Shown here: positions 10,570-26,530 of the stretch, piece after piece
How positions within the stretch are numbered: position 1 is the first letter of the stretch
Layout: every line of letters begins with the position of its first letter
Assembly (NCBI GenBank): GCA_951406725.2
Contig: OX597829.1
Location: 33,728,001-33,792,000 of the forward strand
Source: Octopus vulgaris
Taxonomy: Eukaryota
Length of the DNA: 64,000 nucleotides
Direction: 5' to 3'
Translations under genes and position numbers: made by a program
Notes under the pieces: model-generated
What the model saw: the letters and a program-made list of their open reading frames with translations, nothing else
Databases searched by the model: none
Told to the model about the DNA's origin: nothing

Positions 10570-12262
10570 GAATTAAAAAGCTACAAATACATAATGGCCA
10601 TGAAAATAACTGTCATTGAATCAATAACGCAAATTATAATAAATCTGACCATACCAAAAATATAGTTAATCCTAATAACATCAAATACCTAAAATAGTGT
10701 TCCTAATATTTAAATAAAAATAAAGCAATAATTAAAAATAAGACTAAACTATAACAAAAGTTACTAATTTAGATACTTCTATTGATAAAACTAATATTGT
10801 AATTAATAGTAGTGATTTTAGTGTTAATAATAATAATAATAATAATAATAATGATAGTAGTAGTAGTAGTAGTAGTAGTAGTAGTAGTAGTAGTAGTAGT
10901 AGTAGTAGTAGTAGTAGTAGTTTTATTATTATTATTATTATTATTATTATTATTATTATTATTATTATATAAAATAGGTGGGTAAAGAAAAGAATGCATG
11001 GAGAATTTCAGAATGTTGAAGATAAGACAGACAGAGAAAAAAGATAGCTATGGATGACTAAAAGTGATTCAAAATCAGAAACAGAGGCTCTAATCTGTGC
11101 TGCCCAAGACCAAGCACTAGGAACAAACTACATAAGATGCAGAATAGACAACACATCAGAAAGTGATAAGTGCAGAATCTGTGGACAAAATGGTGAAACC
11201 GTATGGCATATTACCAGCCAATGTACACCACATGCTCAGAAGGAATATAAGAGAAGCCATGACAATATAGCAAGGCTTGTCCATTGGACACTTTGCAACA
11301 AGTATGGACTTGACAGAGAAAAAATTGGTACAACCATAAACCCGAAGGCATCATGGGAAAGGATAATGCAAAGATCCTGTGGGATTTTATGATTCAGTGC
11401 AATCATGAGATAGAGAATAGGAAGCCAGACATAGTCTTAATTGAGAAAGAAAGCAAACTATGCTGGATCATAGATATAGCATGCCCAGTTGACAACAAGG
11501 TATGCAATAAGGAAGAAAGTAAAGTTGAAAGATATGACAGGTTAGCTTGGGAGGTTAAGCAGTTGGGGTTGATGAAAAAGGTGATAGTAGTACCAATAAT
11601 TGTCAGAGCCCTGGGAACAGTGAGTAAAAATCTTGAGAAGTACATGGAACAAATAAGGGCTGCAATAAGGATGGGGCACTTGCAGAAAACAGCACTGCTT
11701 GGAACTGCTTGAATACTCCAGAAGGTGCTCAAAAAATAAGGGGTGTTACCTTAGTTCACTGGTAGTGAACAGCTGACAACGTAGTACATCTCCAGAATTA
11801 GAAGCTGTGTAAAGGCAATGATAATAATAATAATAATAATAATAATAAATAATAATAATAATAATAATAATAATAATAATAATAATAACGATGATGATAA
11901 CGATAGTTGTAATAATGATTATAGTAACAACTTTCAACTTGATTCAGCATTTAAAAACTATAGTACTGGAAGTAAGTACAAAAATAAACATTCCAAATAA
12001 GTAGAATTTACAACTTTAATAAAAAAAAAAAAGCAACAGAAAAATTTTGTGGTACAATGCTCCATTTGGAATCCATATTTCTGATGAAATTCTTCTTTTA
12101 AGCAATTACATAAACATTTCCCACCTTCTAATAAATAACAAAAATTATTTAACAGACATACATTTAAATGTTCATACTCTATAACATTGAACTTTTAAAT
12201 ATACATAAATAGACAAACAGCTTTAAACTATAAAAAATCAAATAATATTACAATTTACCTAA
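10570..12262 (+). mobile_element. Naiad-type PLE, RT-EN linker portion (interrupted at ~10830-11900)
   Basis: 12035-12210 reads RKILWYNAPFGIHIS...KHFPPSNK*QKLFNRHTFKCSYS, matching the linker at 31150-31310; Asn-rich flanks resemble 49760-50040. Confidence 0.7.
10968..11816 (+). mobile_element. R4/Dong-like RLE retrotransposon 3' fragment (family A)
   Basis: CRIC-x8-H-x4-C knuckle, RSHD, KPDIV...DIACP...KVERYDRL endonuclease; ends in (TAA)n. Confidence 0.85.
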
Positions 12263-12421
12263 ATAATGATGATGATGATGATGATGATGATGATGATGAT
12301 GATGATGATGATGATGATGATGATGATAATAATAATGATAATAATAATAACAATAATAATAATAATGATAATGATAATAATAATAATAATAATAATAATA
12401 ATAATAATAATAATAATAATA

Positions 12422-13753
12422 ATTAGAAGAGCCAAATTAATTGTGGAAAGTAGGCTCAATGGAAAAAACGAAATCAGGGCAATGAACACATGGGATGTTT
12501 CCTTGATGCAATCTGGTGCAGGTGTTGTTAAGTGGACAAAAGAATGAGCTGGAAGAAATGGACAGGAAAATCAGAAAAACAATGACAATTAACAAGGAAC
12601 TACACCCAAAAAACGATATTGACAGGCTGTATGTGCCTGAACAAGTAAGAGGTCTGAACAAGTGAGTAAGAGGCATCATAGAATGCAGGATCTGTGTTGT
12701 CAATGAGAAGAACAGCCTGGGATGATACATCAAACAGCAGAGTGAATCCTTGCTTGCCACTGTTAGAATTAATAATACAATACCTACCACAAATGTGATG
12801 CACCCACAAACATTTAAGAAACAAGATGAAGAAGAAAGAATAAACAATTGGAAAATGAAATCACTGCATGGACAATACCTCAGAGAAATCGAAGGAAAAG
12901 ACAAGACCAACACTTGGAGATGGTAAAGAAAAAGTGATCTAAAAGGATACACTAAAGCATTTGTATGTAGTGCCAGAAACAAGCTCTGAGGACTAATTAC
13001 ACCAAGCTTCGAATAGATAAGAGCAGCAAATTACCTCTTTGTAGGATGTGTAGCAGCAAAAATAAAACAATCTCATATATTGTGAGTGAGTGTAGCAAGC
13101 TGGTTCAAAAGCACTATGAAAGGAGGCATAACGTGGCTAAGTTTGTTCTCTGGAGACTATGTGAAAAGTATGGCCTAGACAGAGCACCAAAATAGTATGA
13201 ACATGACCCAGAAGGAATCACCATAAACAATGAATTTAAGATACCATAGGATCTTACAAACCAATGGGACTACCTAATCAATTCTCAGAGACCAGACACT
13301 GTTGTGGTAGATAAAATAAAAAAGGAAATCATCAAGATTATAGATATTGCAATATTTGAAGATGCACGCTTATGTGACAAAGAACTGGAAAAGATGGAAA
13401 AATACAGACAACTAAAAGACGAAATTGCAAGAATGGAATGACAGGAGAGTGTCTGTTATATCCCAGCAGTTGTCGGGACACTTGGAACACTAACAACTAA
13501 GTTTGAGAAATATATCAGAGAATATGGAACTGACATGAGAGCAGTACAGGTCCAAAAAACTGCTCTGCTGGGGGCAGCTAGGATTTTGAGATTGGTACTT
13601 GGGTGTTGAATGGCTTCCACAATAATTAAGATCCAATTAGCAAAGCTTACAACTTGCAGAAAGAGACGCTGTATGACATCTGACAACAGGCTGCTGTCTG
13701 CTCTTACTGAATCAACCAGAGCAAACAAGACCAAGTGCTCTGAGAAGTAAAAC
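12422..13753 (+). mobile_element. R4/Dong-like 3' fragment (family B)
   Basis: LNGKNEIRAMNTW, LHPKNDIDRLY, CRMC knuckle, RPDTVVVD...IIDIA; (TAA)n on both sides. Confidence 0.8.
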
Positions 13754-13934
13754 AATAATAATAATAATAATAATAATAATAATAATAATAATAATAATAA
13801 TAATAATAATAATTCATGAACTAATGCTCTAGACTTACCCAAAACCACTCATGAAAGAATACCCTAGACTTGCCCTAAATCACTTCACGAATGAATGCCC
13901 TAGATTTACCCAAAACCACTACAAGTTGTGGTGA

Positions 13935-14511
13935 CATGATCAGGTAGTGAAAGCGCTACTTGGAAAACTGTGTGAAAAGTGAGGACTAGAGAGAAGCAAG
14001 ATGTGATATGAGCACAAACTGCAGAGAGTGGCAGAGTCAGAGACTAGCAAAATCCTCTGGGATTTCCCAATCCAAACAGATTAGATATTAGAGCATAACA
14101 GACCATACCTAGTGGTGGTGGACAAGATGCACCACATATGCTATGTAGTTGATGTTGCATGCCCTTTTGACCCACAAATAGTCAAGAAAGAAAGCAAAAA
14201 GATAGATAAATACAACCTTCTTAAGTACGAAATGGCTCAGCTATGGAAAATGAAGAAGAGGAAGATAGCGCCAATTATTGTTGGGTTCTTGGAAACAGTA
14301 TCAGAAGGCATCAAGGGGAATATAAAGGAAATTGGAATAGAGTACCCAGTAGAACTGTTACGAAAGGTTTACCTCCTTGGCATGGCCAGAATAATCAGGA
14401 AAGTTTTAGATAGCTGAAAAGAATGGATAGCACGGTACTGTAGGCTGCAGGTAGCAAGCCTGCTATGCATGTAAAACTCCAGAAGCTCCAATAAAACCTG
14501 TGATAAAGAGA
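13935..14511 (+). mobile_element. R4/Dong-like RLE fragment (family C)
   Basis: KILWDFPIQTD...VVDVACPFD...KIDKYNLL; followed by a short TAA run. Confidence 0.8.
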
Positions 14512-24645: not shown

Positions 24646-24654
24646 CTTTATAAT

Positions 24655-26004
24655 TGGAGTGGACAGTATGTTTGGAATGGACGGGCTATAAGTACTTGGG
24701 GATTTTGGAAATGGATAAATTGATGGAGAAAGAAATGACAGGAAAATTTAAGGTAGAGTACTCGCGCAGACTGAGACTGATCCTTAAGTCAAAATTAAAC
24801 AGACGGAATGAGATTGATGCTATCAATACCAGGGCGGTTTCATTCCTTAGATGTGAAGCAGGGGTAATCACATGGACTGCAGACAAACTAAACAGCTTAG
24901 GCAGAAAGACAAGGAAGTTGCTAACTAGATATGGGATACTCCACCCAAAAAGTGACACAGACAGACTGTATGTACCAAGAAAAAGAGGGGGAAGAGGACT
25001 TATTGGATGCGAACACAGCATTAGAGCAGAAGGAAACAACATAGCATGGTATGTAAAAAATTCCACAGAACTGCTATTATTAGAGGTAGGAAGGTCAGGC
25101 TTGTGTAGGATGAAAGATTGCAAAAATAAAGCACTATACAAGAAATTGAAAACTATTGAAACTGAAAGTAAGTGAATAAAGAAAAGAATGCATGGCCAAT
25201 TTCATGGGGATGTTGAAGATAAGATAGACAGAGAAAAAAGATGGCTGTGGATGACTAAAAGTGATTTAAAACCAGAAACGGAGGCTCTAATCTGTGCTGC
25301 CCAAGACCAAGAACTAAGAACAAACTACATAAGATGCAGAATAGACAACACATCAGAAAGTGATAAGTGCAGAATCTGTGGACAAAATGGTGAAACCGTA
25401 TGGCATATTACCAGCCAATGTACACCACATGCTCAGAAGGAATATAAGAGAAGCTATGACAATATAGCAAGGCTTGTCCATTGGACACTTTGCAACAAGT
25501 ATGGACTTGACAGAGAAAAAATTGGTACAACCATAAACCCGAAGGCATCATGGAAAAGGATAATGCAAAGATCCTGTGGGATTTTATGATTCAGTGCGAC
25601 CATGAGATAGAGAATAGGAAGCCAGACATAATCTTAATTGAGAAAGAAAGCAAACTATGCTGGATCATAGATATAGCATGCCCAGTTGACAACAAGGTAT
25701 GCGATAAGGAAGAAAGAAAAGTCGAAAGATATGACAGGTTAGCTTGGGAGGTTAAGCAGTTGGGGTCGATGAAAAAGGTGGTAGTAGTACCAATAAATGT
25801 CGGAGCCCTGGGAACAGTGAGAAAAAATCTTGAGAAGTACATGGAAAAAAATAGGGGCTGCAATAAGGGTAGAGCACTTGTAGACAACAGCACTGCTTGG
25901 AACCGCTCGAAGGCGCTCAAAAAATAAGGGGTGTTACCTTAGTTCACAGATAGTGAACAGTTGACACTGTAGTACATCTCCAGCGTTAGAGGTTGTGTAA
26001 AGGC
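24655..26004 (+). mobile_element. R4/Dong-like 3' fragment (family A)
   Basis: YKYLGILE, LHPKSDTDRLYVPRKRGGRGL, CCHC knuckle, KPDII...DIACP; 3' ~830 bp collinear with 10968-11816; ends in (GAT)n/(TAA)n. Confidence 0.9.
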
Positions 26005-26199
26005 GATAATGATGATGATGATGATGATGATGATGATGATGATGATGCTGATGATGATGATGATGATGATGATAATAATTATAATAATCCACAAAACATG
26101 AAAATTTGGGGGAGGAGTATTGTCAATAACATCAACCCCATGGCACTTCTTTTATAGATCCTAAAAGGATGAAAGAAGAAGTACACCATGGCAGAATTT

Positions 26200-26530
26200 T
26201 AATAATAATAATTACAATATCAGAACTGTTTGATGGTGCAATTACAGAAATAATTAAATTGTCCTATTAACAATCAATGCCTACAAAAAAATTATTATAT
26301 ATAAATGCTCCAAATATACCAGTAACAAATCATATTACTATATTGATGCTGTTGCTTCTGAATTTAAATCTAAATGAAATAACCATCTATCTATGTTGTA
26401 AGAAAAACATACTTCTTTGACAACTTTAATCTGGGAATTGATTGGTAATAATATCAACTTTTCATTGTTTACTCCTCAACTCCTTATAAAGGTGGCCTAC
26501 TCATCGTTGCCTATTCATCTACTCTTTATA
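26200..26530 (+). mobile_element. Naiad-type PLE zinc knuckle + GIY-YIG portion
   Basis: WCNYRNN*NCPINNQCLQK...IYKC...YYYIDAVASEFKSK*NNHLS...TSLTTLIWEL, frameshifted. Confidence 0.75.

What the first reader, a model, noticed from the sequence alone, without database searches (positions are those of the whole stretch)
10570..26530. Poly-Asn (AAT)n linkers of a Naiad PLE act as a landing pad for TAA-targeting retrotransposons
Seen: the PLE linker motif (WYNAPFG...FNRHTFKCSYS, ending ~12262) and the knuckle/GIY-YIG that normally follows it closely (26200-26530) are on the same strand, 14 kb apart. The gap begins and ends in TAA/GAT repeats and is filled with RLE retrotransposons; a second AAT tract upstream (10830-11900) holds another. 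A related PLE at 49340-50040 has AAT-rich linkers at both positions without such insertions. Known: Dong elements (R4 clade) insert into TAA repeats. Inference: a hyperparasitic relationship in which one retroelement disperses the target site of another and is inactivated by it.
Basis: partly seen in the sequence, partly recalled or inferred. Interest (0 to 1): 0.8.

Follow-up and report, generated by a model that had tools for sequence, protein, structure and literature searches.

The report
Transposon seeds another transposon's landing sites
A family of Penelope-like jumping genes in this genome carries AAT repeats inside its own protein-coding linkers, and an unrelated AAT-seeking retrotransposon has landed in them again and again (eleven copies in this one decayed element), but no more often than in other AAT repeats of the same length, so it is likely passive target-sharing rather than a special parasite-on-parasite attack.

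Summary
The two remnants abut on a Penelope-like (PLE) protein profile (positions 448-555 and 556-642, same strand), 13.9 kb apart. Ten 5'-truncated RLE retrotransposons lie between them and one upstream, all on the + strand, from 6-7 families. The element has a C-terminal endonuclease, so it is Hydra-type, not Naiad. Genome-wide, a long-linker lineage has intact ORFs (about 950-1070 aa) with two Asn-rich, predicted-disordered linkers and in-frame (AAT)5-10 runs. 19 of 172 copies carry a same-strand RLE element in a linker, against 2.4% at random positions. None of 52 RLE-centred loci lay clearly in a PLE linker. Inactivation by the insertions is not shown: hit copies are 5'-truncated, frameshifted or older than the insert. 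Best reading: the PLE disperses AAT seeds, a Dong/R4-like element uses them like any AAT tract, then stacks on its own tails. Asn-rich PLE inserts (rotifer) and Dong TAA targeting are known; I found no paper linking them.

The parts
10575..10825 (+). AT/AAT-rich stretch, possibly the PLE's upstream linker; not demonstrated
   Evidence: no profile hit; z at most 4.0 vs shuffles
10826..10966 (+). (AAT)9 (TAG)22 (ATT)14 microsatellite block, 5' flank of RLE copy 1
10969..11816 (+). RLE copy W1 (profile 951-1206), 93% identical to W11; AAT tail to 11886
11890..12265 (+). Left half of decayed Hydra-type PLE: end of linker 1, WYNAPF...FNRH...SYS module, start of linker 2 (profile 448-555)
12266..12423 (+). 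(GAT)20/(AAT)16 tract in linker 2: start of the stack
12424..13753 (+). RLE copy W2 (old; best relative in genome 82%), (AAT)20 tail
13872..14514 (+). RLE copy W3, preceded by a 35-bp tandem repeat
14521..14745 (+). SINE-like repeat (label inferred; very high depth in read layout)
14746..15545 (+). RLE copy W4, (AAT)21 + (AAT)20 tail
15689..17026 (+). RLE copy W5, (AAT)9 tail
17056..17785 (+). RLE copy W6, young abundant family (150 best matches 95-97% aa); a further 3'-UTR remnant with (AAT)20 tail at about 17903-18150
18172..19045 (.). Unclassified AT-rich element with internal inverted repeat (18147-18553)
19052..19444 (+). RLE copy W7 (82% to W5), (AAT)17 tail
19497..20913 (+). RLE copy W8 (young family), 3' end cut by another repeat at 20914
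20980..22689 (+). RLE copy W9 (old, internally deleted, small inversion), (AAC)8 AAT tail; a further 3'-UTR remnant to (AAT)6 at 22837
22872..23625 (+). RLE copy W10 (old; best relative 79-80%), followed by a SINE-like repeat and (AAT)10 to 23871
24361..24747 (-). Probable Penelope/Poseidon-type PLE remnant inside the stack (motifs recalled)
   Evidence: no Pfam hit
24654..26004 (+). RLE copy W11, (GAT)12+(GAT)8 tail to 26073
26080..26200 (+). SINE-like remnant ending in a short AAT run
26200..26530 (+). Right half of the PLE: decayed CxC knuckle and GIY-YIG-type endonuclease (profile 556-642)
49314..51588 (-). Comparison element: another decayed long-linker Hydra-type PLE (profile 323-467, 478-524, 605-661), no RLE insertion

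Best explanation
The window holds a decayed Hydra-type Penelope-like element with eleven Dong/R4-like retrotransposons stacked at its AAT tracts, and the likely mechanism is passive target-sharing: the PLE lineage carries AAT repeats in its coding linkers, and the RLE element uses them as it uses any AAT tract. Steps: (1) SHOWN: long-linker families have intact single ORFs with two Asn-rich linkers flanking the WxNxPF...SYS module and in-frame (AAT)n runs at conserved places, so transposition spreads AAT seeds. (2) INFERRED: the runs lengthen by slippage in individual copies (they range from 1 to 75 units among sister copies). (3) SHOWN: the RLE family is flanked by AAT on both sides and always lies on the AAT strand; INFERRED: it integrates by target-primed reverse transcription at AAT. 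(4) INFERRED: each insertion leaves AAT on both sides, so a hit site gains targets and grows into a head-to-tail stack of several families over a long time, giving the 14-kb gap. (5) INFERRED: most insertions hit copies that were already dead; PLE linkers supply only a few percent of RLE sites.
For: Halves abut on the profile; 11 same-strand RLE copies from 6-7 families, 55-68% alike between families and 79-95% like their closest relatives. Intact ORFs: L220 1072 aa with linkers of 160 aa (23% Asn) and 233 aa (35% Asn), predicted disordered (pLDDT under 50 at 488-637 and 736-926). Six family-E loci have 947-984 aa open frames, four with in-frame (AAT)9-10. 84/174 copies have sense (AAT)>=5 vs 5/174 antisense vs 4.5% random; runs are in the Asn frame in 27/36 and 9/12. 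RLE in a linker in 19/172 copies vs 2.4% (95% 1.1-4.0%) at random positions, p 4e-8. The same split architecture with both PLE flanks visible occurs at 8 independent linker-2 sites (L177/L185/L186 as one, L182, L310, L311, L312, L314, L316, L317). Young RLE family: AAT at 17/20 visible 5' junctions and 28/29 3' ends. Per-tract occupancy equals that of free tracts at four thresholds (p 0.68-1.0). 0/52 RLE-centred loci clearly in a linker. RLE stacks also occur in random DNA (L137, L152).
Against: No empty-site version of the window locus was seen, and the same-copy test for the two halves is weak. Run length does not track copy age within families C-D (rho -0.08, n=88), so lengthening 'after death' is not shown. 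In about 6 of 10 split copies compared, PLE and insert are of similar divergence (e.g. L310 96% vs 95%), so early, possibly lethal insertion is not excluded. Tract length after insertion is itself changed by the insertion, which blurs the per-tract comparison, and the samples (50 vs 44) could hide a modest preference. PLE copies were the best-scoring motif matches, not a random draw.
Confidence: 0.74

Rival explanations
1. True hyperparasitism: the RLE element prefers PLE linkers and its insertions are a main cause of PLE inactivation.
For: 19/172 enrichment over random DNA; two full-length PLE copies are split in linker 2 (L310, L317); insert and host are of similar divergence in several copies.
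Against: No per-tract preference (14/50 vs 11/44). 0/52 RLE-centred loci clearly in linkers. 0/29 young family-D copies hit (0/12 among those picked by motif only). L310 and L317 carry several frameshifts elsewhere, and the other six extended family-C copies could not be traced to the 5' end. Asn codons in linker 2 are 61 AAT vs 20 AAC, against 33 vs 15 in the core, so there is no sign of target avoidance.
Confidence: 0.12
2. For this window only: the two halves come from different Hydra-type copies, and the RLE stack grew at an AAT tract between them.
For: The neighbourhood is rich in Hydra-type remnants (about 8 in 84 kb vs 3 in 600 kb of random DNA); the best DNA matches of the halves are different loci (L002, L040).
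Against: The halves abut exactly on the profile (555/556) on one strand; both lean to families A/A2; the same split is seen at 8 other sites.
Confidence: 0.1
3. Reverse causation: the AAT tracts in PLE linkers are leftover RLE tails, and the PLE does not carry them.
For: RLE copies end in (AAT)n; SINE-like and other insertions also sit in some linkers.
Against: Intact ORFs with no RLE sequence carry in-frame (AAT)5-10 shared by several copies; runs lie at conserved positions and in the Asn frame.
Confidence: 0.04

Closest known systems
Hydra clade of C-terminal EN+ Penelope-like elements (Craig et al. 2021, PMC8557442; section 11 and passages read)
   Same: C-terminal GIY-YIG-type EN, RWK/RWR and DKT motifs, CxCX5C knuckle, no CCHH, CxxC and CxH near the end, hammerhead-like motif upstream in one copy.
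   Different: Two Asn-rich linkers of 160-230 aa (relatives: median 25 and 28 aa); ORF up to 1072 aa vs about 700; a long separate branch. The passages read do not mention Asn-rich linkers or RLE insertions.
Asn-rich inserts in Adineta vaga Penelope ORFs (Arkhipova et al. 2013, PMC3846280; passages read)
   Same: In-frame 25-30% Asn inserts between RT and EN that leave the ORF open; arise at short (AAY)n runs; one secondary insertion (Pen2a into Pen3) fell in an N-rich segment and was proposed as an attractive target.
   Different: There: Penelope/Poseidon clade, very few copies, PLE into PLE, one case. Here: a Hydra-type lineage with many copies, two linkers, and a heterologous RLE LINE as the inserter, counted against controls.
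Dong elements / R4 clade, TAA-microsatellite targeting (PMC3812793 passages; PMC4640811 passages; Dong-R4 the most numerous recently active LINE in Octopus vulgaris, PMC13282606 first third and passages)
   Same: Single ORF, RT, C-terminal CCHC and RLE, AAT on both flanks, young and abundant.
   Different: Clade not tested against named references; multi-family head-to-tail stacks and use of PLE-coded seeds are not described in the passages read.
Naiad PLEs (PMC8557442)
   Same: PLE-type RT and GIY-YIG-type EN; present in octopus as remnants according to the paper.
   Different: Naiads have an N-terminal EN, CX2-5CxxC and CCHH fingers, and no hammerhead; none fits here.
TE-born microsatellites (Alu/L1 proto-microsatellites, PMC3812793 passages)
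   Same: A retroelement spreads short repeat seeds that later lengthen.
   Different: Here the seed is protein-coding poly-Asn and is then used as a target by a second retroelement.

Membership tests
Naiad PLE | GIY-YIG EN at the N-terminus | tested here: not met
   EN lies after RT and linker in the window halves and in intact ORFs
Naiad PLE | CX2-5CxxC finger and CCHH motif in the EN | tested here: not met
   intact ORFs show CxCX5C and a single Cys in the GIY-YIG core (read directly)
Naiad PLE | No canonical hammerhead ribozyme | tested here: inconclusive
   hammerhead-like motif in 1 of 14 loci scanned (L221; fold z -3.3); Rfam gave no hammerhead hit in 7 loci
Hydra PLE | Single ORF, C-terminal EN | tested here: met
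   L220 1072 aa; fold matches telomerase and other RTs; window halves in this order
Hydra PLE | RWK and DKT motifs | tested here: met
   RWK+DKT in family E, RWR+DKT in family D; RWK/RWR in 80/101 and DKT in 94/101 relatives. Not testable on the window copy, which lacks its 5' part
Hydra PLE | CxCX5C knuckle, no CCHH, CxxC and CxH near the conserved E/N | tested here: met
   families D and E; 83/101 relatives; degenerate in the window copy
Hydra PLE | Canonical hammerhead in the pLTR | tested here: inconclusive
   motif in L221 only, with a long insert in stem II; no Rfam hit
Hydra PLE | Groups with Repbase Hydra families in an RT tree | not testable with these tools
   no named references; long-linker families form one long-branch clade among unnamed motif-sharing relatives
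Hydra PLE | Insertion into (TA)n | not tested
   not examined systematically
R4/Dong RLE LINE | Single ORF with RT, C-terminal CCHC finger and restriction-like endonuclease | tested here: met
   L172 1272 aa, CX2CX7HX4C, RHD, RPD..D..K motifs; RVT_1 E 7.9e-28; distant match to R2 structures
R4/Dong RLE LINE | No N-terminal zinc finger (criterion recalled) | tested here: met
   no CX2C finger seen in the N-terminal 450 aa (read directly); none in Pfam
R4/Dong RLE LINE | Inserts into TAA/AAT repeats | tested here: met
   17/20 5' junctions and 28/29 3' ends; 11/11 occupied control tracts on the AAT strand
R4/Dong RLE LINE | RT phylogeny with Dong/R4 references | not testable with these tools
   no hit named Dong or R4
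R4/Dong RLE LINE | Target-site duplication | tested here: inconclusive
   both flanks are AAT repeats, so a duplication cannot be told apart

The most novel reading that the evidence does not exclude
An active Penelope-like lineage encodes the target of an unrelated site-specific retrotransposon inside its own ORF: poly-Asn linkers are tolerated as disordered protein but expose every full-length copy to Dong-like insertion, so the RLE element kills source copies and caps linker repeat length and PLE family lifespan, a hyperparasite relation that works through codon-level microsatellites.
Probability: 0.15. Interest if true: 0.75.

Novelty: new variant of a known kind. Interest (0 to 1): 0.47.

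Why it matters
It gives a counted example of one transposon manufacturing the insertion sites of another through its own coding sequence. It shows that Asn-rich ORF expansion, described for rotifer Penelope elements, recurs in a different PLE lineage with intact, young copies. It also explains how multi-kilobase one-way LINE stacks arise in this genome, which matters for repeat annotation and for the origin of its many AAT microsatellites. The intact short-linker and long-linker families side by side are a ready test of whether PLE linkers are neutral, and the intact AAT-specific RLE family is a testable site-specific integrase. The effect on either element's fitness appears small, which limits the surprise.

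Tried and rejected
Naiad membership: rejected on domain order. Empty-site search: contigs of four runs (one labelled organism A, three labelled B, C, D) hold both halves and several old stack members with 0-4 differences, but none of the 15 joints shown (2090 not shown) links about 12260 to about 26100, and contigs break at the repeats: inconclusive. PLE identity of 10575-10825: not shown. Rfam search for hammerheads: only microsatellite-driven chance hits. Pfam on eight window frames gave no PLE or RLE family at cut-off, and none on the 1072-aa ORF. Run length vs copy age: no correlation. SINE-like repeat as an AAT-targeter: only 3 of 35 control 3' ends were followed by AAT. DNA matches of PLE linker regions to RLE-centred loci were SINE or low-complexity noise on inspection of four loci. 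Of 24 automatically flagged PLE loci I dropped L269 and L304 (spurious AT-rich matches) and L283 and L254 (no clear linker tract), merged L012/L024/L026 (96-97% identical paralogs), and added L214 from the longer stretch. L061, whose RLE lies just outside the window used, was not counted. One search's print was cut; L208 was judged and L214. Automated lesion counts were too rough to use. Naming the RLE clade by homolog names failed. Earlier-findings look-ups returned nothing. Literature searches found no paper on Dong/R4 insertion into PLE Asn-rich linkers; the library is open-access only, and supplements (notably those of PMC8557442 and PMC13282606) were not read.

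
Full report
SETTING. The window is G000:C16:33728001-33792000 of a 2.8-Gb, 227-contig assembly. From size and repeat make-up I infer an octopus; this is not confirmed by any search.

OBSERVATION. A profile from 101 full-length relatives of the window's 30180-31193 frame matches 11938-12243 (profile 448-555) and 26216-26464 (556-642), both on +, abutting without overlap. 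An RLE profile from 28 full-length relatives finds eleven 5'-truncated copies, W1 at 10969-11816 and W2-W11 in the gap, all on + (boundaries). Nine end in AAT, GAT or AAC runs; W10 has only a trace and W8 is cut by another repeat. All (AAT/ATT)>=5 runs of the window lie in this cluster. The gap also holds SINE-like pieces, a probable Poseidon-type remnant (24361-24747, -; motifs recalled) and an unclassified element (18172-19045). The copies fall into 6-7 families, 55-68% alike between families. Closest relatives range from 79-82% (W10, W2) to about 94-95% (W6), so the stack built up over a long time. The PLE halves are at most 70% like anything found. The stretch 10575-10825 is not shown to be PLE. 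That both halves are one copy is likely but only weakly tested.

WHAT THE PLE IS. Naiads have an N-terminal endonuclease; Hydra elements have it C-terminal with RWK, DKT and CxCX5C motifs and no CCHH (PMC8557442, passages and section 11). The relatives show RWK/RWR in 80, DKT in 94 and CxCX5C in 83 of 101, so the element is Hydra-type. The genome holds a short-linker family with 717-aa open frames and a long-linker lineage. Its young members are intact: L220 has a 1072-aa ORF with linkers of 160 aa (23% Asn) and 233 aa (35% Asn) either side of the WxNxPF...SYS module. Six family-E loci have 947-984-aa open frames, four with in-frame (AAT)9-10. AlphaFold gives pLDDT under 50 for 488-637 and 736-926, and 90 or more for 588 residues; the fold matches telomerase and other RTs. 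Among the 150 best relatives in the 50%-identity library, linkers measurable in 60 and 38 proteins have medians of 25 and 28 aa, and only two near relatives (82% and 67% identical) have a long Asn-rich first linker. Four long-linker RT cores form one clade on a long branch (29 rows, 7 skipped; the old families A and B were too decayed to include). A hammerhead-like motif lies upstream of the ORF in L221 (1 of 14 loci); Rfam did not call it.

WHAT THE INSERTER IS. A young family (150 best matches at 95-97% aa, 80,580 first-look candidates) has full-length 1272-aa ORFs with RT, CCHC and RLE motifs. AAT repeats flank 17 of 20 visible 5' junctions and 28 of 29 3' ends. This fits Dong (TAA-targeting, PMC3812793 passages; the most numerous recently active LINE in O. 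vulgaris, PMC13282606), but the clade was not tested against named references.

DOES THE PLE CARRY THE TARGET? Yes. Of 174 unique motif-anchored copies (194 loci examined), 84 have sense-strand (AAT)>=5 within 450 nt either side of the module, 5 have (ATT)>=5, and 4.5% of random 900-nt windows do. Runs are in the Asn frame in 27/36 (family C) and 9/12 (family A), and in family A the longest run starts 165-201 nt after the motif in 13 of 26 copies.

IS IT USED? Yes. After hand checks (24 flagged; 4 dropped, 3 paralogs merged into one, 1 added), 19 of 172 copies have a same-strand RLE element in a linker, against 2.4% (bootstrap 1.1-4.0%) at random positions in 60 random 10-kb regions: p 4e-8, or 7e-5 against the upper bound (the control was not hand-pruned). 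By family: A/A2 11/54, C/C2 8/55, B 0/13, C3 0/14, D 0/29 (17 of these were picked for long frames), short-linker 0/7. Two loci had opposite-strand hits, one at an (ATT)19 tract. Eight independent linker-2 sites show both PLE flanks, two of them in full-length elements (L310, L317).

IS IT PREFERRED? No. Random DNA has 44 AAT sites of 8 or more units per 600 kb, 11 occupied, all on the AAT strand. PLE copies with such tracts are occupied in 14 of 50 (p 0.82); thresholds 4, 6 and 12 agree (p 0.68-1.0). Of 52 RLE-centred loci none lay clearly in a linker (L090 lies near a rearranged remnant; flanks were only about 1.5 kb). Extrapolating 12 occupied sites per 600 kb gives about 56,000 sites. With 7,000-10,000 PLE candidates and about 12% filled, linkers would supply about 2% or less (my estimate).

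DOES IT INACTIVATE? Not shown. Inserts are much younger than the host in L044, L315 and L311 (host 81-91% to its closest held relative, youngest inserts 97-99%) and in the window; they are of similar age in L310, L316, L312, L314, L187 and L182 (depends on sampling). Both full-length split copies carry frameshifts elsewhere, and the other six extended copies could not be traced to the 5' end. Linker-2 Asn codons are 61 AAT to 20 AAC, against 33 to 15 in the core. Run length does not track age within families C-D.

MECHANISM. The PLE spreads coding AAT seeds (shown). Runs lengthen by slippage (inferred). An AAT-specific RLE element inserts in the orientation set by the AAT strand (orientation shown; target-primed reverse transcription from established knowledge of RLE LINEs). 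Each insertion leaves AAT on both sides, so hit sites collect further copies (inferred; stacks also occur in random DNA).

PRIOR WORK. Asn-rich in-frame inserts in Penelope ORFs, and one PLE insertion into such a segment, were described in Adineta vaga (PMC3846280, passages). Target-specific non-LTR elements are known to use microsatellites and transposons (PMC4640811, passages). R4-Dong is nearly confined to cephalopods among the molluscs surveyed in PMC10294476 (passages). The retrozyme preprint (10.64898/2026.07.22.740005, passages) does not bear on this. Eight searches found no report of the combination; supplements were not read and may list these families.

VERDICT. A real, repeatable and countable TE-to-TE interaction, passive in kind; a new variant of known phenomena. 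Interest 0.47.

Noticed in passing
window 27552-28225 (-), 29340-31434 (+), 44470-45785 (+), 49314-51588 (-); L325, L326: About 8 Hydra-type PLE remnants in 84 kb here against 3 in 600 kb of random DNA: a local cluster, unexplained.
   Followed up: partly
window 29340-31800: Short-linker Hydra-type PLE with a 338-aa open RT frame, split by a tandem pair of SINE-like repeats (29787-30203) and cut at its EN by a DDE_3-like (Tc1/mariner-type) piece (weak Pfam hit).
   Followed up: partly
window 18172-19045; L139; L266: Unclassified AT-rich element with an internal inverted repeat; a related piece also sits right after an AAT run in a family-C2 linker (L266), so a second element may use these tracts.
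   Followed up: partly
L080 (G000:C1:57207000-57213200) and neighbours: Young short-linker Hydra-type family with intact 717-aa frames, in tandem copies about 2.6 kb apart.
   Followed up: partly
L177, L185, L186 (C10:96.16-96.50 Mb): Three 96-97% identical paralogs of one split PLE with different amounts of RLE left in the same linker, one with a further young insertion: a natural time series of stack growth and deletion.
   Followed up: partly
L221, 5' of the ORF: Hammerhead-like motif with a roughly 50-nt hairpin inserted in stem II, missed by Rfam.
   Followed up: partly
window 28232-29154: A 920-bp imperfect palindrome (75% self-match) directly beside the 27552-28225 PLE remnant.
   Followed up: no
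window 44700-45468: A 770-bp insertion with CAA/CAG-rich repeats splits another Hydra-type remnant between knuckle and EN.
   Followed up: no
L319-L324: Poly-Asn run length differs among intact family-E copies (10, 9, 10, 3, 3, 9), so the coding microsatellite varies within a young lineage.
   Followed up: partly
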